Assembly: GCA_030620995.1 (NCBI GenBank)
Contig: JAUXIK010000006.1
Span: 137-64,136, forward strand
Direction of reading: 5' to 3'
Origin: Candidatus Aegiribacteria sp.
GTDB lineage: Bacteria > Fermentibacterota > Fermentibacteria > Fermentibacterales > JCC-6
DNA length: 64,000 nt
The position numbers and the translations under genes are program-made. The notes under the pieces were generated by a model, which searched no databases, had not been told where the DNA came from, and was given only the letters and a program-made list of their open reading frames with translations. Below are positions 49,276-57,207 of this stretch, piece after piece (position 1 is the stretch's first letter; each line of letters opens with the position of its first letter).

Positions 49276-49443
49276 GATAGCCTCCTTATCAAAATGTAAT
49301 GCAATTCCAGGGCAGGGTCATCTCTTTCCTTTTAACATTGTCATCAGCTTTTCCAGCTTAACCGAAAAAGTATTGACTGCATTTGTTCTTTTTGACATGA
49401 GTCTTCATACTACAATAAACATTCTTATTTGGAGGTTTTGCTC

Positions 49444-52233
49444 ATGATGTCAGGATTAGTTCTTTTGGTTCTGGTAGCTGCCGGTTATCCCGGCCCTGAA
49501 AGCAGGGCTGACTACGATATGAATGTCTCGCTTCAGACGGATTCAAACATGATTCACGGTTCCGTGGAAATTGTCTTTACCAACGGGGTGGAATTCCCTG
49601 TTGATACACTCTGGCTTCATCTATATCCAAACGCTTACAGAGATCATACAACTGCATTCGGGCAGGATCTCGAGGCAGTCGGCCGTTACGGATTCAGAGC
49701 ATCTCCGGAATCGGAAAAAGGCTGGATCGATCTTTCGGACTGGAGTGCGGACGGGGAAGCTGTTGTGCCTTCAGTTGATGGCTCTCTGGCATTCATCCCG
49801 CTTGCTGATCCTCTTCAACCAGGTGAATCAATTCTGCTTTTTGGCGATTTCGACGTGCATGTTCCCAAATTCTGGAGCAGGATGGGGCATCTGGGAGATA
49901 CTTATCAGATAACGCAGTGGTATCCTAAAATGTGCGTTCTCGATGAGAATGGATGGCACAGGGCACGATATCACTGGAGAGGAGAGTTTTACAGCGATTA
50001 CGGGAATTATTCGATAACACTTGATGTTCCCGGGGAATTTATCACTGCTGCTACAGGATGTGTTGAAAGCACTTCTTTCAGTGAGGATTCACTTAGAAGA
50101 ACAGAAGTCTGGACCGCTGAAAATGTTCATGATTTCGTGTGGGCGGCCAGTCCTGACTATACTGTTCGCGAACACACATACGTCTATCCTGAAAGTCTGG
50201 GTTCCTGTTCGGTGAGTGTGCACCTGGTTCTGCTCGATGATTCAGATGATCACTGGGATGAGGTTCCCGCGGTTATCGATTCCACTCTTCTCTATTATGG
50301 AGAATGGTACACTCCATATCCTTACGAAGACCTCTGGGTAGTGGAGCCGGTTGTAGTGAGCGCAGGGGGGATGGAATATCCCCAGTTCGTATTCTCCGTG
50401 CCTGATTTTCCATTTCTCAGGATTCTTGAGATGGTCACAATGCATGAAATCGGGCACCAGTGGTTTTACGGGATGCTCGGTAATGATGAAGTAGAAGAGG
50501 CATGGCTGGATGAAGGAATGAACACCTTCAGTGAACTTCGCTATATGCAGAGAAGACATGGCTTCAGTGGTAATATGTCCAGAACTCCGGACTGGATACT
50601 GGAACTGAGTGATCAGGACATGAGTCTCATGACATATGTAACAGGTACTCTGGCCGGGGAAGAGGTTCCTGTACTCAGTAATGCTACCGAGGCCGGGGAT
50701 GGAAGCCATCCAACCGGATTCACCTATTACGCCAAGCCAGCCCTGTTCATGCGGATGCTTCAGCGGCAGATGGGTGAAGAGGATTTTAATCAGGTCATGT
50801 CGATCTACTTCGAAAGATTCATGTTCCACCATCCTCATACTGATGATTTTCAGGCAATAGTGGAAGAAGTTACAGGGAAATCCTGGGACGAGGAATTCAA
50901 TTTCTGGCTTAGAGGAACTGCAAATGCGGACGTTCTCATAAAGAATGTAACCTTCAACGCGGATTCAACTACTGCAATTGTTGCGGGTGATATCCCGCAC
51001 GAACTGGAACTTGATCTTTTGTTCCTTTCCGGTGAGGATTCTCTTATTACAAAGGCCACACTTACTCCGGGATTGAGTGATACAGTCACAGTTTCTGGAA
51101 ACTGGAGCACCGCCGTAATAGATCCGTTTCTATGCATGCCTGACAGGGCCCCATGGAATAACGCCTCGCCACCTCTCGGCCAGCTTAAACCGATGTTTCT
51201 TCCGATTCCAAGACCGACCCATCACAGCCTGTGGGTTCTCCCGTTCCCATCTTACGCCGATCATTCATGGAGAGCTGATATCATCTGCATGTCATCAACA
51301 ATTCCATCGTATATGGGAGGTCCGTACACCTGGACCGCATTTGCCTCTATTCCATTCAAAAGCGAGAGTTACTCGGCATGGGGTGCTTCTTTCCATATGC
51401 CTCTGTACCGGGAATATCGACGCAGCATCTATATGTCTTCCGGAATTTCAAGAGGGTACGGAATCGGCAGGGCTTCTCTCGGTGCTGACTATCTGCGAAG
51501 CGGCAGAGTGGCGACCGATCCTCATTACAGGATCTCGCTTGATATGGATCTGTTCTGCGTGGAGGACACAACGGTATACGGTGCTCTGAACGTCGAGGAA
51601 GGTAACGCTTTTGAATTCACAACATGTATAGCTGCCGTTGATCGGAACTACAGGTTATCATGGAACGGGGCTTTGAGTATTCTGGCTTCTCCGGAATGGA
51701 ATAACGAAGCTTACGCCAGGATTGACGGCAGGATCGAACTGACAGGCAGACTCTGGGGAGATTATCTGGCCAGAACCAGGATATATGCAGGCAGAATAGC
51801 CGGTGATGCTCCCGTTCAGCGCTTCTTAAGACCCGGTGGCGGACTCTTCGCAGAGGGTATTATGGGGGCATTTGTTCCCCCGAGCGGTTCGCTTTCCCCT
51901 CTGGAGCATTATTTCGTTCGGTCAGGACCAGCGCTTCCAGGCTACTGGAACAGCACCCTTCGAGGAAGAGCAGCCTTCTCGATTGAACAGAGATTACCGT
52001 TGCCCTCGCTGTTTATTCCTGTTGAAATATTCGGAGGAGCTGGATGGCTCGGCGATTCCTTTGGAGATTTCTCAGGTGATGATATTCTCTTAAATGCGGG
52101 AATAGCCGTGCGGATTGCGATGCTTGAAGCGATCTTTCCCATATGGGTATCCGATCCGGAAGGTGATGATAGCGAATGGGAATTCCGCTGGAGGATTGGA
52201 CTGTCACCCGCCGGTTTACCCGATCTGTACTGA
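49444..52233 (+). CDS. M1-family zinc metallopeptidase domain fused to a C-terminal Omp85/surface-antigen-like beta-barrel region
   Basis: ATG 49444 follows GGAGG. Signal peptide. 'GGMEY' and 'HEIGHQWFYGMLGNDEVEEAWLDE' give HExxH-X18-E. The C-terminus 'LPGYWNSTLRGRAAFSIEQRLPLP...FGGAGWLGDS...NAGIAVRI' resembles the Bac_surface_Ag barrel. Confidence 0.7.
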   Translation: MMSGLVLLVLVAAGYPGPESRADYDMNVSLQTDSNMIHGSVEIVFTNGVEFPVDTLWLHLYPNAYRDHTTAFGQDLEAVGRYGFRASPESEKGWIDLSDWSADGEAVVPSVDGSLAFIPLADPLQPGESILLFGDFDVHVPKFWSRMGHLGDTYQITQWYPKMCVLDENGWHRARYHWRGEFYSDYGNYSITLDVPGEFITAATGCVESTSFSEDSLRRTEVWTAENVHDFVWAASPDYTVREHTYVYPESLGSCSVSVHLVLLDDSDDHWDEVPAVIDSTLLYYGEWYTPYPYEDLWVVEPVVVSAGGMEYPQFVFSVPDFPFLRILEMVTMHEIGHQWFYGMLGNDEVEEAWLDEGMNTFSELRYMQRRHGFSGNMSRTPDWILELSDQDMSLMTYVTGTLAGEEVPVLSNATEAGDGSHPTGFTYYAKPALFMRMLQRQMGEEDFNQVMSIYFERFMFHHPHTDDFQAIVEEVTGKSWDEEFNFWLRGTANADVLIKNVTFNADSTTAIVAGDIPHELELDLLFLSGEDSLITKATLTPGLSDTVTVSGNWSTAVIDPFLCMPDRAPWNNASPPLGQLKPMFLPIPRPTHHSLWVLPFPSYADHSWRADIICMSSTIPSYMGGPYTWTAFASIPFKSESYSAWGASFHMPLYREYRRSIYMSSGISRGYGIGRASLGADYLRSGRVATDPHYRISLDMDLFCVEDTTVYGALNVEEGNAFEFTTCIAAVDRNYRLSWNGALSILASPEWNNEAYARIDGRIELTGRLWGDYLARTRIYAGRIAGDAPVQRFLRPGGGLFAEGIMGAFVPPSGSLSPLEHYFVRSGPALPGYWNSTLRGRAAFSIEQRLPLPSLFIPVEIFGGAGWLGDSFGDFSGDDILLNAGIAVRIAMLEAIFPIWVSDPEGDDSEWEFRWRIGLSPAGLPDLY

Positions 52234-52247
52234 AACCGGGGAGGAGA

Positions 52248-52505
52248 ATGAAAGCACTTGCGCTTTTCCTCTTGATGTTCCTTGTCCTGACAGGAGCAGT
52301 TTCTGAGGAATTCCAGTCCGAACAGGACAGCACGGATTCCGGACTGTTTCAGTTTCTTGTACGTATGGCCAGGACTGAGATCCGTCCATGGGCAAAACCG
52401 ATCGAGAATGTAGACATGGAGTGGATGCTGGAACTCTTCGAGAGTGGAATAATCACTTTTCATACTGCTGACTGGTATGTTGAAAAGGATGATCCGGATG
52501 AGTAA
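52248..52505 (+). CDS. small secreted protein
   Basis: ATG 52248 follows GAGGAG. Signal peptide 'MKALALFLLMFLVLTGAVS'. Its stop overlaps the start region of the next gene. Confidence 0.45.
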   Translation: MKALALFLLMFLVLTGAVSEEFQSEQDSTDSGLFQFLVRMARTEIRPWAKPIENVDMEWMLELFESGIITFHTADWYVEKDDPDE

Positions 52506-53490
52506 CAGGGTTCAGTGTGTTCTGTGTCCCCATTTATGTACCCTTGCTCCGGGGGAGAGGGGAAGGTGTAGCGTAAGATTGAATGTTGACGGTGAACTTG
52601 TCAGTCTTGTGTATGGCAGACCTGTCGCGGTGCACGTTGACCCGGTTGAGAAGAAGCCGCTCTTTCATTTTCTGCCTGGAATCGACGTGTTTTCTATCGC
52701 GACTGCCGGGTGCAATCTTCGATGTGAATTCTGCCAGAACTGGGAAATCTCCCAGGCAGCTCCTGAGGACGTTACACCATACGATTTACCCCCTGAGGCT
52801 GTTGTTGAGCAGGCAATCGCTTACAATTGCGAGGCTGTTGCTTACACCTATACGGAACCGGTTGTTTATTTTGAATACACCCGTGACACAGCAAAACTGG
52901 CAAAGGAGGCCGGACTGAAGAATATCCTTGTTACAGCAGGGTATATTAATCAGGGTCCGCTTACCGAACTCGCTGAGTATATCGATGCTGCAAATATTGA
53001 TCTTAAATCGATGTCAGACAGCTATTACAGAAATGTATGCGGTGGAACTCTCCAGCCTGTACTTGATACGATAACTACTCTGAAGGAACTTGGAACCTGG
53101 GTTGAAGTAACGAATCTTATTGTACCGACTTTGAATGATGACTCTGGAGAACTGGATGAGCTTGCCAGGTGGATTCTGGAGAACACCGGAGCTGATACAC
53201 CTCTTCATTTCTCAAGATTTTTTCCCATGTACAGACTGATTGATCTTGCTCCCACACCTGTATCCACACTGCAAAGTGCCAGGGAAAGGGCTCTTGAGAT
53301 AGGTCTTCATCATGTTTACGTCGGGAACGCAGTTACGGAGGAGGGGATGATAACAACATGTCCGGAGTGCAATGAAGTTCTCATCAATAGACAGGGATAC
53401 ATTATTACGGAGAACAACATTGAAAATGGAAAGTGCGGTAAATGTTCAACCCCGGTAGCAGGGGTATGGCATGGAATGGAGGAACAGTGA
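52477..53490 (+). CDS. AmmeMemoRadiSam-system radical SAM enzyme
   Basis: 'VQCVLCPHLCTLAPGERGRCSVR' and the radical SAM cluster 'CNLRCEFCQNW'. Adjacent to the Memo/AMMECR1 gene. Start alternatives are 52489 and 52498. Confidence 0.8.
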   Translation: MLKRMIRMSNRVQCVLCPHLCTLAPGERGRCSVRLNVDGELVSLVYGRPVAVHVDPVEKKPLFHFLPGIDVFSIATAGCNLRCEFCQNWEISQAAPEDVTPYDLPPEAVVEQAIAYNCEAVAYTYTEPVVYFEYTRDTAKLAKEAGLKNILVTAGYINQGPLTELAEYIDAANIDLKSMSDSYYRNVCGGTLQPVLDTITTLKELGTWVEVTNLIVPTLNDDSGELDELARWILENTGADTPLHFSRFFPMYRLIDLAPTPVSTLQSARERALEIGLHHVYVGNAVTEEGMITTCPECNEVLINRQGYIITENNIENGKCGKCSTPVAGVWHGMEEQ

Positions 53491-53498
53491 TCAGTAAA

Positions 53499-53660
53499 AT
53501 GAGCAGAAGAAAATTTCTCTCAAGGACTGTTCTACTGCTGTTCTCCGCGGTCGCGGCTGTTGCAGGAGGAAAGCTGCCGCAGGAGAAGGAAACAGCAGAA
53601 CTGGCAGTTAAAAGAACATCAAGAAAGAAGGCGGATTACTACAGGGAGCTTGCGGGATGA
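53499..53660 (+). CDS. 53-aa micro-protein with twin-arginine signal
   Basis: 'MSRRKFLSRTVLLLFSAVAAVAGG' followed by a 29-aa highly charged tail ending 'ADYYRELAG'. Starts 8 nt after the rSAM stop. An ATGA overlap joins it to the next gene. Confidence 0.45.
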   Translation: MSRRKFLSRTVLLLFSAVAAVAGGKLPQEKETAELAVKRTSRKKADYYRELAG

Positions 53661-55162
53661 GAACATTCATAATATTCGCAGTAGTCCTGTTCACCGCCTG
53701 CGGGAACAGTTCCCCCGGAGATGAAGAAGAAGTGTCCGGTACAGGGAGAGCAAGGCCGCCTGTTGTTGCCGGGATGTTCTATCCGGCGGATCCTGTTGAA
53801 CTGAGCAGTATGGTGGACAGACTGATCGACGCATCAGTAGTTCGGAGTACCGGCGGAACAATAATAGCGGGCGTTGTTCCACATGCGGGATACGTCTACA
53901 GTGGTGCTACCGCAGCTGATTTCTACAGTCTTATTGATGGGCTTGAGTTTGATGTTGTGATTCTCATCGGACCATCACACCGTGCTGCCTTCCAGGGCAT
54001 GTCCATATTCGATGGAGATTTCTACCTTACTCCTCTTGGAAGCGTTCCGGTTGCTGCAGATGTCGCTGACAGATTGAGGGAATCACATCCAGCAGCCTCA
54101 TTTATTCCAGCTGCTCACGAGGAGGAGCACAGCCTTGAAGTTCAGATCCCGTTTCTTCAGAGATCAATTGAACCAGGTTTCAGGATAGTACCGATAGTGA
54201 CCGGTTACACAGGAGCCAATGAGCTGCAATACATGGCCGAGTTGATCCTTGCTGAATCGTACAATGAAAAAATGCTTGTCCTTGCAAGCAGTGATCTGTC
54301 CCATTTTCCCGCCGAGAGTCTGGCAAGAGTTGTTGATTCTCTTACCGTGGAAGCGATATTGAGTGGAGACATGAATCAATTCCTTCAGGTTACTTCTGAA
54401 GAAGAACTTCCCTCCGGGCTTGATACGTTTGCGTGTGGAAGGCTTCCAATTGCTCTGGTTATGGCTTATACCGGTCTTTATCCCGGAGTTACATCTGAAC
54501 TGCTGTCGAGCACAACAAGCGCTTCTGTCTCCGGAGACTATTCACGAGTTGTCGGATACGCTTCCATTGCATTTGAATCGTTAGAACCTGAACCGTCGGA
54601 ATGGAGCATTTCAGAGGAAGGGCGAGAAGAACTTCTTGAGATTGCAATCGCGTCTGTTGAGGCGGCAGTTGAAAATACCGGATTTAACTTGCCGGATGAT
54701 ACTTCCCTGGAGCTGTTGATTCCACGCGGAGCCTTCGTGACCTTGAAGAGAAACGGCCGTCTCAGGGGCTGTATTGGCTCTATGAGACCGATTCGACCTG
54801 TTGCCGAGACAGTATTGTTAATGGCCCGGTCAGCCGCGATGGAAGATCCACGCTTTATGCCGGTAACGCCTGGTGAACTTCCTGATCTTGAATACGAGAT
54901 TTCCGTTCTTACACCCCTTCAGATACTTGAGGACTGGCATGATGTAAGAGTGGGAACGGATGGTTTAATGATATCCGCCCGTAACAGAAGCGGTGTCCTT
55001 CTGCCTCAGGTTCCGGTTGAACAGGGCTGGAACAGAGAGGAGTTCCTTGAAGGTGTCTGTCTGAAAGCTGGATTGAGTCCTGACGCCTATCTTGGTGAAG
55101 TTACACTCTACCGTTTTCAAGCTCAGGTGTTTGGAGAAGATGAGGAATACTCAGAAGACTGA
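53657..55162 (+). CDS. Memo (AmmeMemoRadiSam protein B) - AMMECR1 (protein A) fusion with lipoprotein-type signal
   Basis: 'MRTFIIFAVVLFTAC' signal. Memo motifs 'VAGMFYP', 'PHAGYVYSG', 'GPSH', 'EHSLEVQIPF' and 'SSDLSH'. AMMECR1 motifs 'GAFVTLK' and 'LRGCIGS'. Confidence 0.85.
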   Translation: MRTFIIFAVVLFTACGNSSPGDEEEVSGTGRARPPVVAGMFYPADPVELSSMVDRLIDASVVRSTGGTIIAGVVPHAGYVYSGATAADFYSLIDGLEFDVVILIGPSHRAAFQGMSIFDGDFYLTPLGSVPVAADVADRLRESHPAASFIPAAHEEEHSLEVQIPFLQRSIEPGFRIVPIVTGYTGANELQYMAELILAESYNEKMLVLASSDLSHFPAESLARVVDSLTVEAILSGDMNQFLQVTSEEELPSGLDTFACGRLPIALVMAYTGLYPGVTSELLSSTTSASVSGDYSRVVGYASIAFESLEPEPSEWSISEEGREELLEIAIASVEAAVENTGFNLPDDTSLELLIPRGAFVTLKRNGRLRGCIGSMRPIRPVAETVLLMARSAAMEDPRFMPVTPGELPDLEYEISVLTPLQILEDWHDVRVGTDGLMISARNRSGVLLPQVPVEQGWNREEFLEGVCLKAGLSPDAYLGEVTLYRFQAQVFGEDEEYSED

Positions 55163-55178
55163 AGATAAATCACTGTCC

Positions 55179-57179
55179 GTGCTGGCCGCTTTTGCAGGAG
55201 GAATGCTTTCTGTCATTATTCAGGCGGTAGTATTAAGAGAATCCCTTTTTGGTCATCATCAGGCGGAACTGACATCCGGAATAGTCCTTGCATCATGGAT
55301 TGCCGGATCCGGTATTGGCGCGGCAATTGGTGGAAGGACTTCAAAACACAGTCTCCTATGGGTAACGGGTATGATTCTGCTTCCTGTTCTGGGATTTCTT
55401 CAAGTAGCTGCTTCCAGACTGGAGATAATTCCTACTGCGTTATCCGTGCTTCCTGCTGGATTTGTCGGCGGATTGGTGTTCGTGCAGCCATTTGCTTTCT
55501 GCAGACCTGGAAAAGTATATGCTCTTGAAGCTCTTGGTGCTGCAGTTGGTGGCGGGATATTCATCCTTCTTTCGCCGCATCTGCTCGCTTTCGAAATGCT
55601 CTCTGTTTCCATCCTTATCTCTGCCGCCGGCCTGTTGCTCTGTAGAAGACCTGTTCCCGGACTGATTGTTTCAGCTGTTCTTCTGGCAGGATTTCTGTTC
55701 GGCGCACCCGAATCGCTGGGAACCTGGCTTGCAGGTGAATCATTTAAAGAGTATGACAGTGTCAGTATCCACTCATCACCGTACGGAGAAGTGGTTACCG
55801 GAACCAGATCCGGTCAACATGCTATTTTCAGGAGCGGTTTACTGGAGGCTACATGGCCTTCGCTGGAATCCGCAGAGGGGGTTGTCACAGTTCCTCTTAT
55901 CGCGGTTCTGCCATCCCGTGTTCTATATATAGGTTCTTCGCCGGAAGAGGCGCGGATCATATCGGAATGGCCGACCGTAGACAGTGTTGTAACCGTGGTT
56001 CCAGACAGGACACTATGCTTTGTAGCGGAATATCCTGAAGGAACAAGAGCGGGAGATGGAAGACGTTTTCTATCCGGGAATGATGAGCGCTGGGATCTTG
56101 TAATAGTGTCTACGGGCCAGCCTTTGACCCTTCTCTCCAACAGGTTTTTCACCAGAGAATTCTTTGAACTGCTCTCAGGCAGGCTTACTGAGGATGGTGT
56201 CGCAGCTATCCGCCTTCCTGGAGGGATAAACAGATTACATCCACTTGAAGCGGAACTTGCAAAATCCATACTTCTATCCGCGGAGAGTGTATTCCACTGG
56301 AGCAGAATCCTGCCCTCTTCGGGTCTTGTTCTTTTGACGGGAAACGGTCTGGAGCCATCATTTGAAGGTTCGGTACTGGCAGAGAGAATGGATTCCATTG
56401 GAGCATCAGGTGTCTTTGTCAACTCAGGTACACTTCCATTTGATCTGTCACACTTGAGATTGTCCGCTGTTGAGGAACAGCTTCATGCTGCTTCAGCACG
56501 CAAAAATACCGATCTTCACCCGGAGGGCTTCCGGATTGCCTGTGAGTTATGGGATGTAAGGGTAGGTGATGATCAAAAACTCAACCTTACACTTCCCATA
56601 GCCGGTTTATGCTTATTAGCAATGATTACAGCAGCGTTTCTAAGCGGTAAAGTCAAACCTGCCCTGGCGCTGGGTATGGTGGGTTTTATCGGCTTATCCG
56701 TTGAGGTTATCGCTCTGGTTGCCATTCAAGCTGTTACAGGTCACTCATGGGTGCTTGTAGGAGCCATCACCGGCACTTTCATGGCCGGCGGAGCTCTTGG
56801 CGCTCTCGGGCAGGATAAGGGCGTGTTCTGCAATCTCAGACAGCTGGTTGTCCTATCAGGGATCTCATCTCTGTTTTCCGTCCTTGTTCTGTACTTATAC
56901 GATCAGGGGTTGCTTGGTGGCGGACTGCTCTCTTTGCTGCTCCTTATAGGAATTATGGTTTGCGGGGTGGCAAGCGGTGGAGCTTTCCCGGTCGCGGTAA
57001 CACTCCTGAAGGCGGGAGATACGAGAAGAATAGGCCTGCTGGACCTGGCAGAACACGGGGGCAGTGCTGCTGCTGCTCTTCTCATGCCCCTTGTCCTGTT
57101 TCCACTGCTCGGCGCGCAGGTAGCTCTCCTCATAACCACCGCAGCAATAATAGTGACAGGCACTCTTTTAAGAAACTGA
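55179..57179 (+). CDS. polytopic membrane protein with central spermidine-synthase-like domain
   Basis: About 7 N-terminal and about 6 C-terminal hydrophobic segments flank 'VLYIGSSPEE...WDLVIVSTGQP', a degenerate SAM/aminopropyltransferase-like fold. GTG 55179, or ATG 55140/55203. Confidence 0.55.
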   Translation: MLAAFAGGMLSVIIQAVVLRESLFGHHQAELTSGIVLASWIAGSGIGAAIGGRTSKHSLLWVTGMILLPVLGFLQVAASRLEIIPTALSVLPAGFVGGLVFVQPFAFCRPGKVYALEALGAAVGGGIFILLSPHLLAFEMLSVSILISAAGLLLCRRPVPGLIVSAVLLAGFLFGAPESLGTWLAGESFKEYDSVSIHSSPYGEVVTGTRSGQHAIFRSGLLEATWPSLESAEGVVTVPLIAVLPSRVLYIGSSPEEARIISEWPTVDSVVTVVPDRTLCFVAEYPEGTRAGDGRRFLSGNDERWDLVIVSTGQPLTLLSNRFFTREFFELLSGRLTEDGVAAIRLPGGINRLHPLEAELAKSILLSAESVFHWSRILPSSGLVLLTGNGLEPSFEGSVLAERMDSIGASGVFVNSGTLPFDLSHLRLSAVEEQLHAASARKNTDLHPEGFRIACELWDVRVGDDQKLNLTLPIAGLCLLAMITAAFLSGKVKPALALGMVGFIGLSVEVIALVAIQAVTGHSWVLVGAITGTFMAGGALGALGQDKGVFCNLRQLVVLSGISSLFSVLVLYLYDQGLLGGGLLSLLLLIGIMVCGVASGGAFPVAVTLLKAGDTRRIGLLDLAEHGGSAAAALLMPLVLFPLLGAQVALLITTAAIIVTGTLLRN

Positions 57180-57207
57180 AAGGGAGCCAGCATGAACTGG
57201 CTCCCTT
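57180..57207. terminator. hairpin between convergent genes
   Basis: 11-bp stem aagggagccag/ctggctccctt with a 6-nt loop. A T-rich run follows on the minus strand only. Confidence 0.5.

What the first reader, a model, noticed from the sequence alone, without database searches (positions are those of the whole stretch)
53499..53660. Tat-signal micro-protein wedged between the radical SAM and Memo-AMMECR1 genes (candidate substrate or escort)
The ORF reads MSRRKFLS (S-R-R-x-F-L), then a hydrophobic core ending AVAGG, then a 29-aa Lys/Glu/Arg-rich tail ending ADYYRELAG. It fills the whole gap between two functionally linked genes and overlaps the downstream start, which argues for translation.

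A small peptide next to a radical SAM enzyme is the classic layout for a modified peptide. Alternatively, Tat-signal mini-proteins can act as hitch-hiker escorts.

From memory, the tail ([KR]-x-[ST]...Y-Y) loosely resembles the small 'formate-dehydrogenase-region TAT target' family. It lacks the His-[IV] part of that family's motif.
Basis: partly seen in the sequence, partly recalled or inferred. Interest (0 to 1): 0.6.

Follow-up and report, generated by a model that had tools for sequence, protein, structure and literature searches.

The report
Detached Tat signal for radical SAM enzyme
This conserved 57-residue gene looks like the broken-off front end (export signal plus one strand) of the neighbouring iron-sulfur radical SAM enzyme, and it probably clips back onto that enzyme to carry it across the membrane to its partner proteins.

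Summary
The ORF is real. It is present in all 21 related cassette loci examined and is under purifying selection (dN/dS 0.1-0.5).

It consists of an invariant twin-arginine motif, a hydrophobic core, a variable linker and a conserved tail, TSRKKADYYRELAG.

The upstream AmmeMemoRadiSam radical SAM gene starts only 6 residues before its first Cys. It therefore lacks the N-terminal strand (EARYYEKLP) found in intact relatives. In a large clade of those relatives the strand is preceded by the enzyme's own Tat signal.

The mini-protein aligns end to end with that N-terminal module (hhalign 96.9%). It ends where the truncated enzyme begins.

Predicted docking rebuilds the hairpin of the intact enzyme: ipSAE 0.88, best control 0.12.

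Best reading, at about 0.62: a Tat signal supplied in trans by strand complementation. This would carry the enzyme to its lipoprotein Memo-AMMECR1 partner.

It is not a TIGR02811 member (16 bits against a 48-bit cut-off). The substrate reading is disfavoured.

Binding, export and expression are untested. A second small protein with a similar tail remains unexplained.

The scan noted a similar 55-residue ORF earlier on other DNA (e1-1425397).

The parts
52248..52505 (+). Upstream 85-aa protein with a Sec-type signal peptide. It is specific to the cassette. Its conserved C-terminal tail is ...TFHTADWYVEKDDPDE, and its role is unresolved.
   Evidence: Present in all cassette loci read and absent from six Tat- or anchor-fused loci. 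No Pfam or NCBIfam family. Its tail aligns weakly with the mini-protein tail (hhalign P 0.01). In the AF2 model the tail has no regular structure on its own.
52498..53490 (+). AmmeMemoRadiSam radical SAM enzyme, N-terminally truncated form (330 aa). It starts MSNRVQC, 6 residues before the first Cys.
   Evidence: TIGR04337 scores 390.6 bits, but the match starts only at model position 9. The start 6 residues before the first Cys is conserved in all cassette loci.
52516..52569 (+). N-terminal four-Cys motif of the enzyme (C7, C10, C14, C24). It lies next to the predicted docking site.
   Evidence: These columns are invariant in alignment A4. Enzyme residues 1-9, 15, 27, 30 and 32-41 are in the predicted interface.
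53478..53483 (+). GGAGGA ribosome-binding site for the mini-protein gene.
   Evidence: Conserved 3-4 nt before the start codon in the relatives.
53487..53660 (+). It overlaps the enzyme's stop (GTGA) and the next gene's start (ATGA).
53502..53519 (+). Twin-arginine motif S-R-R-K-F-L.
   Evidence: R7, R8 and F10 are invariant in 23 family members.
53520..53570 (+). Hydrophobic core of the signal, ending A-V-A-G-G. A small-x-small pattern suggests a possible signal peptidase site.
   Evidence: Alignment A3. Cleavage is inferred from the pattern only.
53571..53609 (+). Variable linker.
   Evidence: This region has the highest pN/pS of the gene (0.72) and varies in length.
53610..53657 (+). Conserved tail KRTSRKKADYYRELAG, the predicted docking strand. 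It is equivalent to L-V-E-A-R-Y-Y-E-K-L-P-H of intact Tat-bearing enzymes.
   Evidence: Column-by-column match, ending where the truncated enzyme starts. hhalign results. Residues 42-57 form the predicted interface.
53657..55162 (+). Fused Memo (protein B) and AMMECR1 (protein A) with an N-terminal lipoprotein-type signal (MRTFIIFAVVLFTAC).
   Evidence: TIGR04336 252.5 bits and TIGR04335 165.5 bits. A Cys-containing signal is conserved in all relatives.
55179..57179 (+). Polytopic membrane protein with a weak spermidine-synthase-like stretch, the last gene of the cassette. Its start is uncertain (55140 or 55179).
   Evidence: The same gene follows in distant cassettes.
57180..57207 (.). 12-bp hairpin directly after the last gene, the probable end of the operon.
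   Evidence: pattern match only.

Best explanation
The ORF is a real 57-aa gene. [quoted passage not shown]

The radical SAM gene immediately upstream is translationally coupled to it and lacks exactly this strand.

Proposed mechanism, in order:
1. The tail docks onto the folded enzyme. It completes a beta-hairpin with the enzyme's first residues and pairs with strand 33-39, next to the N-terminal four-Cys site.
2. The signal-less iron-sulfur enzyme thereby acquires a Tat signal in trans.
3. The enzyme is carried across the cytoplasmic membrane by hitch-hiking.
4. There it meets its partner, the Sec-exported lipoprotein Memo-AMMECR1.

Shown:
- The gene is conserved and under purifying selection.
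- The enzyme is truncated at its N-terminus.
- The mini-protein is collinear with the N-terminal module of intact Tat-bearing enzymes.
- Separate mini-protein and own signal are complementary in distribution.
- The docking prediction passes its controls.

Inferred:
- Actual binding.
- Actual Tat export.
- Cleavage of the signal.
- The idea that docking only onto a folded, cluster-loaded enzyme acts as a built-in export check.
For: 1. The ORF is conserved at the same position in 21 of 21 cassette loci. RR and F are invariant, as is the ...A.[YH][YWF][RK].LAG end. dN/dS is 0.10-0.47, and synonymous changes occur across the invariant tail.

2. All cassette-type enzymes start 6 residues before the first Cys. 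They miss TIGR04337 model positions 1-8. Other forms keep an aromatic-pair strand there:
- the cytoplasmic paralogue has PEWFEKD;
- an anchor-fused form matches the model from position 2.

3. Of the 120 best relatives of a KSB1 enzyme, 110 carry their own RR signal followed by L[VT]EAR[YH]YEKLP.

4. The mini-protein tail matches that segment column by column. A and L are invariant in both, the same Y/H alternation occurs, and the tail ends within 2 residues of where the truncated enzyme begins.

5. hhalign of the mini-protein family against the N-terminal module gives 96.9% and E 1.5e-10, collinear from signal to strand. The tail alone gives P 3e-4, and 0 of 300 column shuffles reach that score.

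6. Complex prediction on enzyme plus tail:
- Score 0.88; best of 3 controls 0.12.
- This mark was reached by 58 of 80 solved complexes and 2 of 110 mismatched pairs. These counts hold only roughly, because I used my own alignments.
- The runs agree in at least 96% of contacts; partner pLDDT is at least 62.
- The best contacts, Y52 with Q6/C7 and Y51 with C7/V8, reproduce the register of the hairpin that AlphaFold2 gives the intact Tat-bearing enzyme (strands 11-14 and 18-21, turn P-H-R).
- Halves of a split gene tend to pass this test by likeness to the intact fold, which here is the claim itself.
- No solved structure covers this part of the family.

7. Distribution is complementary. Six loci whose enzyme has its own signal or anchor hold no mini-protein gene, whereas six of six cassette loci do. 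Within the genus, every genome with the fused lipoprotein gene has the mini-protein and the seven genomes without it lack it.

8. TatC and TatA are present in the genome. The partner Memo-AMMECR1 always carries a lipoprotein or other secretion signal. The second, cytoplasmic system of the same genome has no signals.
Against: - There are no expression, binding or export data.
- The strand similarity is short, 11 aligned residues. A profile search for longer fused forms in 5.8 billion proteins found none at E 0.001 or better, so the relation rests on profile-profile comparison, register and modelling.
- The upstream 85-aa protein is also cassette-specific. It is collinear with the truncated enzyme, has a Sec-type signal and ends in T-F-H-T-A-D-W-Y-V-E. 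This aligns weakly with the mini-protein tail (P 0.01). It is therefore open which of the two fills the strand slot in the mature enzyme.
- SAM and a reductant are not known outside the cytoplasm, so export of a radical SAM enzyme is itself unproven. A later check of a similar earlier scan finding (e1-360152) gave only 12/100 to radical SAM chemistry outside the cytoplasm.
- In the tree, the cassette enzymes are a separate clade from the sampled Tat-bearing ones. Descent from a Tat-bearing ancestor is inferred, not shown.
Confidence: 0.62

Rival explanations
1. Membrane tether or small subunit without export. The mini-protein still binds the enzyme through its tail, but its hydrophobic segment only holds the enzyme at the membrane, beside the polytopic membrane protein. 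The radical SAM chemistry stays on the cytoplasmic side.
For: The binding prediction says nothing about location. The tail is strongly basic (RTSRKK), so the positive-inside rule does not clearly place it outside. SAM and reductant are cytoplasmic. A sister genome holds a form of the enzyme with a non-RR N-terminal hydrophobic anchor (L070). The earlier scan note e1-360152 was later given low odds for chemistry outside the cytoplasm.
Against: R-R and F are invariant across the family. 110 of 120 fused relatives keep a canonical S-R-R-x-F-L motif, which a plain anchor would not need. The partner Memo-AMMECR1 is always given a secretion or lipoprotein signal.
Confidence: 0.14
2. Substrate peptide. 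The radical SAM enzyme modifies the conserved tail (Tyr/His), and the Tat pathway then exports the product to work with Memo-AMMECR1. This would resemble a ribosomally made, post-translationally modified peptide or cofactor precursor.
For: A small peptide gene lies next to a radical SAM gene. The tail has conserved aromatic residues. A radical-SAM-matured protein that acts in the periplasm is known (HxsA, PMC13128918).
Against: The tail aligns with a structural N-terminal strand of intact enzymes, and it is predicted to lie in the sheet beside the four-Cys site rather than in the active-site barrel. Systems with an intact enzyme have no such peptide. The second aromatic position is not conserved (Y, W, F, S, A). 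The enzyme shows no peptide-recognition or SPASM domain in Pfam.
Confidence: 0.07
3. The upstream 85-aa protein is the true donor of the missing strand, because it is collinear with the truncated enzyme. On this reading the Tat mini-protein binds something else, such as Memo-AMMECR1 or the membrane protein.
For: The upstream protein ends in A-D-W-Y-V-E-K-D directly before the enzyme's start. This resembles the canonical P-E-W-F-E-K-D strand. It is as cassette-specific as the mini-protein.
Against: Its similarity to the strand is not significant: P 0.09 against the canonical form and 0.47 against the Tat-bearing form. It has a Sec-type signal, so it would leave the cytoplasm unfolded and apart from the enzyme. 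The mini-protein tail passed the docking test with controls.
Confidence: 0.08
4. Member of the small 'formate dehydrogenase region TAT target' family (TIGR02811), acting as an accessory of a molybdoenzyme.
For: A weak hit to TIGR02811 (16.2 bits, E 0.0098). Both are small proteins with a Tat signal.
Against: The score is far below the cut-off of 48.45. An unrelated Tat-like N-terminus in the same genome scores 15.5 bits, and 13 of 14 control genomes give sub-threshold hits. No formate dehydrogenase lies in any of the loci. The neighbours are always the radical SAM enzyme and Memo-AMMECR1.
Confidence: 0.02

Closest known systems
Tat 'hitch-hiker' enzyme pairs, above all the periplasmic [FeFe]-hydrogenase HydAB. 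Its small subunit HydB carries the Tat motif and the catalytic subunit HydA has none (bioRxiv 10.64898/2026.10.15.759383). The Ni-Fe hydrogenase and formate dehydrogenase pairs are reviewed in PMC10924467.
   Same: A cofactor-containing catalytic subunit without a signal is paired with a small partner that bears the twin-arginine signal. The genes are adjacent. From my own knowledge (not checked here), the hydrogenase small subunit likewise corresponds to a terminal segment of single-chain relatives.
   Different: Here the signal-bearing partner is only 57 aa. After the signal it contributes a linker and a single strand, not a folded subunit. It corresponds to the N-terminal end of relatives that already carry the signal, yet it is encoded downstream of the enzyme. 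The cargo is a radical SAM enzyme, for which I found no report of Tat export.
AmmeMemoRadiSam radical SAM enzymes with their own N-terminal Tat signal (365-396 aa; KSB1, Latescibacteria, Calditrichota, Fidelibacterota and others).
   Same: The enzyme family is the same (45-50% identity). The partner is the same, a secreted or lipoprotein Memo-AMMECR1 fusion next door. The N-terminal module has the same layout: signal, linker, A-x-[YH]-[YWF]-x-x-L strand.
   Different: In those enzymes the module is covalently attached. Here it is a separate gene after the enzyme gene, and the enzyme gene is shortened by exactly that piece.
TIGR02811, 'formate dehydrogenase region TAT target'.
   Same: A small protein of under 70 aa with a Tat signal and a short conserved C-terminal tail containing aromatic residues.
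   Different: It fails the family's score cut-off (16 against 48 bits), the context lacks formate dehydrogenase, and the tail motif differs.
Precursor peptides matured by radical SAM enzymes, and the radical-SAM-matured periplasmic effector HxsA (PMC13128918).
   Same: A small gene beside a radical SAM gene, with an extracytoplasmic destination.
   Different: The conserved part aligns with a structural strand of the enzyme family itself. No recognition domain was found on the enzyme. The peptide is absent wherever the enzyme is intact.

Membership tests
TIGR02811 (formate_TAT) | Score at or above the curated cut-off of 48.45 bits | tested here: not met
   16.2 bits and 15.9 bits in the genome search. 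This is the same level as an unrelated Tat-like N-terminus at 15.5 bits.
TIGR02811 (formate_TAT) | Encoded near formate dehydrogenase subunit genes | tested here: not met
   The neighbours in every locus are the radical SAM enzyme and Memo-AMMECR1.
TIGR02811 (formate_TAT) | Small size (70 aa or fewer) with an N-terminal twin-arginine signal | tested here: met
   46-75 aa, with RR and F invariant.
Twin-arginine (Tat) signal peptide | S/T-R-R-x-F-L-type motif followed by a moderately hydrophobic core | tested here: met
   S-R-R-K-F-L followed by about 17 hydrophobic or small residues. R7, R8 and F10 are invariant in 23 members.
Twin-arginine (Tat) signal peptide | Tat translocase encoded in the same genome | tested here: met
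   TatC 214 bits and TatA/B/E 57 bits in G000.
Twin-arginine (Tat) signal peptide | Tat-dependent export shown | not testable with these tools
   This needs fractionation in tat-plus and tat-minus hosts.
Tat hitch-hiker pair (signal on a small partner only) | The cargo lacks a signal while its relatives or partners are extracytoplasmic | tested here: met
   The cassette enzyme starts MSNRVQC with no signal. 110 of 120 relatives carry their own signal. The partner is a lipoprotein.
Tat hitch-hiker pair (signal on a small partner only) | Physical complex of signal bearer and cargo | tested here: inconclusive
   Model only: ipSAE 0.88 against a best control of 0.12. This supports binding but does not show it.
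AmmeMemoRadiSam system | Radical SAM enzyme above the TIGR04337 cut-off (220 bits), with protein B (TIGR04336) and protein A (TIGR04335) adjacent | tested here: met
   390.6, 252.5 and 165.5 bits. Proteins B and A are fused in one polypeptide.
Radical-SAM-modified peptide precursor | Maturase with a peptide-recognition or SPASM-type domain | tested here: not met
   Pfam finds only Radical_SAM and a sub-threshold Fer4_12. NCBIfam places the enzyme with the activase-like TIGR04337.
Radical-SAM-modified peptide precursor | Covalent modification of the peptide | not testable with these tools
   This needs mass spectrometry after co-expression.

The most novel reading that the evidence does not exclude
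The whole AmmeMemoRadiSam system of this organism works outside the cytoplasmic membrane, and the split signal acts as a built-in assembly check. Only an enzyme whose N-terminal four-Cys domain has folded, and presumably received its cluster, can capture the strand and so become exportable. This would replace a dedicated Tat proofreading chaperone. It would mean radical SAM chemistry in the periplasm, and a naturally occurring 'signal in trans by strand complementation' device.
Probability: 0.3. Interest if true: 0.85.

Novelty: new variant of a known kind. Interest (0 to 1): 0.7.

Why it matters
Tat hitch-hiking is known for a few redox enzymes whose signal sits on a full subunit. Here the signal bearer is reduced to a signal plus one strand that completes the cargo's own fold. 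That is a minimal, natural design for export in trans, and it could be copied to export folded cofactor proteins.

The function of the Memo/AMMECR1/radical SAM trio is still unknown. The trio is conserved from archaea to humans for Memo and AMMECR1. Evolution kept the radical SAM enzyme addressed to the same compartment as its lipoprotein partner even after the signal was split off. This argues that the enzyme must physically meet Memo-AMMECR1, and that the system's substrate exists outside the cytoplasm in these bacteria.

If export is confirmed, it would also be a case of a radical SAM enzyme working where SAM is not known to occur.

Tried and rejected
- TIGR02811 membership is rejected on score and gene context.
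- Pfam gave only a sub-threshold PetC anchor hit on the signal region.
- A profile search for longer, fused forms of the mini-protein found nothing at E 0.001 or better. The link to the Tat-bearing enzymes therefore shows up only in profile-profile comparison.
- The tree has three clean clades (cassette, Tat-bearing, cytoplasmic). It cannot show that the cassette form descends from a Tat-bearing one. The first tree attempt failed to return.
- The upstream 85-aa protein was compared with the strand profiles. It is not significant against the enzyme N-termini (P 0.09 and 0.47) and weak against the mini-protein tail (P 0.01). Its fold model is of low confidence (pTM 0.30).
- Literature searches for AmmeMemoRadiSam, for AMMECR1 with Memo and radical SAM, and for radical SAM with Tat found no paper on an exported form or on this small protein.
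- No solved structure covers the N-terminal part of this enzyme family. Only PFL-activating enzyme matches, at E 1e-4 over the core.

Full report
**Observation**

Its stop overlaps the ATG of the next gene (ATGA, 53657-53660).

The more likely start is GTG 53487, which gives 57 aa:
- It overlaps the TGA of the upstream radical SAM gene (GTGA).
- It follows a GGAGGA at 53478-53483.
- Public gene calls are 57 aa.

**Neighbours**

- Upstream lies an AmmeMemoRadiSam radical SAM enzyme (TIGR04337, 390.6 bits).
- Downstream lies one polypeptide that fuses Memo (TIGR04336, 252.5 bits) and AMMECR1 (TIGR04335, 165.5 bits) behind a lipoprotein-type signal, MRTFIIFAVVLFTAC.
- The organism is a Candidatus Aegiribacteria (Fermentibacterota) genome, judged from the names attached to near-identical proteins.
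- The same genome also has a second, ordinary system without any signals. Its radical SAM gene is on contig C1 and its separate Memo and AMMECR1 genes are on C157.

**Is it a gene?**

- I searched relatives with the fused Memo-AMMECR1 protein. The small ORF ends at the start codon of that gene in every one of 21 loci read.
- A profile of the family finds it in 28 of 70 genomes of the order. Within the genus it occurs in every genome that has the fused lipoprotein gene, and it was not found in the seven that lack it.
- R-R, F and the C-terminal A...L-A-G are invariant across 23 family members.
- The tail residues are kept through synonymous codon changes: ACA/ACT/ACC, TCA/TCC/TCG, AGA/AGG/CGG, GCG/GCT/GCC/GCA.
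- Pairwise dN/dS in unsaturated pairs is 0.10-0.47. The tail is the most constrained part and the linker the least.
- The codons AGG GAG and the final GGA are almost fixed at the nucleotide level. They probably also serve as the ribosome site and overlapping start of the next gene.
- The family is small: 18 clusters at 50% identity among 1.8 billion representatives.
- Even its most distant members sit in the same five-gene cassette. The order is a roughly 90-aa signal-peptide protein, the radical SAM enzyme, the mini-protein, the Memo-AMMECR1 fusion and a roughly 680-aa membrane protein.

**The key comparison**

In a KSB1 genome, the fused Memo-AMMECR1 lipoprotein lies near a radical SAM enzyme that carries its own twin-arginine signal, and there is no mini-protein.

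I searched with that enzyme and found a very large group of 365-396-aa AmmeMemoRadiSam enzymes. Of the best 120, 110 have an RR motif. All share the layout signal, linker, L-[VT]-E-A-R-[YH]-Y-E-K-L-P-x-R-K-I-K-C-x-L-C-P.

The cassette-type enzymes begin only six residues before that first Cys (MSNRVQCVLCP), in every locus. The window's enzyme therefore starts at ATG 52498, not 52477. It matches the curated TIGR04337 model only from position 9.

The strand is a normal part of the family, and the cassette enzymes lack it:
- The cytoplasmic paralogues keep an aromatic-pair strand at this place, P-E-W-F-E-K-D.
- An anchor-bearing form matches the model from position 2.

**The missing piece is the tail of the mini-protein**

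Counted from the end, the two sets of sequences agree column by column:
- An invariant A.
- Then R or D.
- Then the same Y/H alternation.
- Then an aromatic residue.
- Two charged residues.
- An invariant L.

The mini-protein ends within two residues of the position where the truncated enzyme begins.

Profile-profile comparison of the mini-protein family with the N-terminal modules of the Tat-bearing enzymes gives 96.9% probability and E 1.5e-10. It is collinear from the signal to A-D-Y-Y-R-E-L aligned with A-R-Y-Y-E-R-L. Any two Tat signals would align in their signal parts, so I repeated the comparison with the tail alone. That gave P 3e-4 with the same register, and 0 of 300 column shuffles of the tail reach the observed score.

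A plain profile search for longer fused forms found nothing significant. The relation is therefore too short to be seen without the profile-profile step.

**Docking**

One complex prediction was available. I used it on the enzyme (alignment of 49 sequences) and residues 25-57 of the mini-protein (alignment of 23). Results:
- Score 0.88; best of 3 controls 0.12.
- This mark was reached by 58 of 80 solved complexes and 2 of 110 mismatched pairs. These counts hold only roughly because my own alignments were used.
- The three runs agree in at least 96% of contacts. Partner pLDDT is at least 62.
- The interface is mini-protein residues 42-57 against enzyme residues 1-9, 15, 27, 30, 32-41 and a few others.
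- The most confident contacts are Y52 with Q6/C7 and Y51 with C7/V8. Residues 45-49 lie along enzyme residues 33-37.

An AlphaFold2 model of an intact Tat-bearing enzyme puts Y-E-R-L (11-14) and K-I-R-C (18-21) in a hairpin with the turn at P-H-R. In that hairpin the second Tyr pairs with the first Cys, the same register as in the predicted complex. The break between mini-protein and enzyme falls in the turn.

Halves of a split protein tend to pass this kind of test because the model knows the intact fold. Here that is exactly the claim. No solved structure covers this part of the family. The result supports binding but does not show it.

**Distribution and compartment**

- Six loci in which the enzyme has its own signal or anchor hold no mini-protein gene. 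The mini-protein profile only touches the N-termini of the enzymes themselves, weakly. All six cassette loci tested hold one.
- The partner Memo-AMMECR1 has a lipoprotein or other secretion signal in cassette and Tat-bearing loci alike.
- The cytoplasmic system of the same genome has none.
- TatC and TatA are encoded in the genome.

**Explanation**

The mini-protein is the detached N-terminal module of a Tat-targeted radical SAM enzyme. It clips back onto the folded enzyme by strand complementation, lends it the signal, and takes it through the Tat pathway to its lipoprotein partner.

The simplest history, which is inferred, has three steps:
1. A cytoplasmic enzyme with the strand.
2. The same enzyme with a Tat signal added in front.
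3. A split in the hairpin turn, with the front piece now encoded behind the enzyme, as could arise from a tandem duplication followed by loss of complementary halves.

The tree shows the cassette, Tat-bearing and cytoplasmic enzymes as three separate clades. The cassette form is closer to the Tat-bearing one by branch length, but this does not prove the order of events.

The small-x-small pattern after the hydrophobic core (A-V-A before G-G) suggests the signal may be cleaved. That would leave a peptide of about 31 residues on the enzyme. This is a guess from the pattern.

Because the docking site is built by the four-Cys N-terminal region, docking may depend on correct folding of that region, which would delay export until the enzyme is ready. 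This too is inference.

**What speaks against it, and what is unexplained**

- Nothing here shows expression, binding or export.
- SAM and a reductant are not known in the periplasm. An earlier scan finding of an exported system of this kind was later given only 12/100 for chemistry outside the cytoplasm.
- A tether at the membrane without export therefore remains a serious rival.
- The cassette has a second specific small protein directly upstream of the truncated enzyme (52248-52505). It has a Sec-type signal and a conserved tail, T-F-H-T-A-D-W-Y-V-E-K-D.
- That tail aligns weakly with the mini-protein tail (P 0.01) and not significantly with the enzyme strands. It is unstructured in a low-confidence model of the protein alone.
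- I could not resolve whether it binds the same groove after export, binds elsewhere, or is unrelated.

**Comparison with what is known**

- The closest known mechanism is Tat hitch-hiking. [quoted passage not shown]
- This case differs in three ways. The partner is reduced to a signal plus one strand, it corresponds to the enzyme's own N-terminus, and the cargo is a radical SAM enzyme.
- It is not a TIGR02811 member. It scores 16 bits against a cut-off of 48, the level reached by an unrelated Tat-like N-terminus in the same genome, and there is no formate dehydrogenase in the context.
- The substrate-peptide reading is disfavoured but not excluded. A radical-SAM-matured periplasmic protein is known (PMC13128918).
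- I found no paper on an exported AmmeMemoRadiSam system or on this small protein.
- Public records call the small protein hypothetical.
- Within this scan, a similar 55-residue twin-arginine ORF was noted in another genome with a carrier reading (e1-1425397). Tat-bearing enzymes of this family were noted in many genomes.
- New in this report are the identification of the tail as the enzyme's missing strand, the exact split point, the complementary distribution and the controlled docking prediction.

**Verdict**

This is a real, conserved gene. It most likely supplies a Tat signal in trans by strand complementation (about 0.62). It is a new variant of a known kind, of clear interest to people who work on Tat export, on radical SAM enzymes and on the unexplained Memo/AMMECR1 system.

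Noticed in passing
window 52248-52505 (+): A cassette-specific 85-aa protein with a Sec-type signal. It has a conserved R.WAKPIE.VDM..M.EL.E.G..[ST]FH.A[DE]W[YF] C-terminal region ending directly before the truncated radical SAM gene (ATGAGTAA overlap). No known family. Its tail weakly resembles the mini-protein tail.
   Followed up: partly
L005 1226-1346 (G013:C29), junction of radical SAM stop and mini-protein start: The 21-nt unit holding the ribosome site and GTG start (GGAGGAGCAGTGAATAACAAT) is present three times in tandem. This gives three possible starts and a repeated GGAVNNN stretch.
   Followed up: no
L070 1057-4600 (G013:C6) and L072 884-4605 (G036:C67): Two further forms of the enzyme. 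One has a non-RR N-terminal hydrophobic anchor followed by VEADFYEKLE. The other has a Tat signal. Each is followed directly by a 770-820-aa membrane protein of the same spermidine-synthase-like kind as the last cassette gene, without Memo-AMMECR1 next to it.
   Followed up: partly
L035 6012-7004, L036 4884-5843, L037 5990-6997: A DUF362 protein with its own twin-arginine signal lies directly upstream of the Tat-bearing radical SAM enzymes. In L036 a NIL-ferredoxin protein is also present. These are possible extracytoplasmic electron donors.
   Followed up: no
window 49429-52233 (+); L021 4752-6449 (-); L037 10685-12763 (-): Metallopeptidase genes recur beside the export-addressed systems. An M1-type gene lies 15 nt upstream of the cassette here. 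An M3/M32-like lipoprotein lies between the enzyme and the Memo-AMMECR1 gene in KSB1. An M1-type gene lies near the L037 locus.
   Followed up: no
G000 contig C1 6290-7252 and contig C157 12850-14210: The same genome keeps a second, ordinary AmmeMemoRadiSam system with separate Memo and AMMECR1 genes and no signals. This system is present in nearly all relatives, whereas the cassette is patchy.
   Followed up: partly
window 57180-57207: A 12-bp GC-rich hairpin directly after the last cassette gene, readable on both strands. It is the likely operon end.
   Followed up: no
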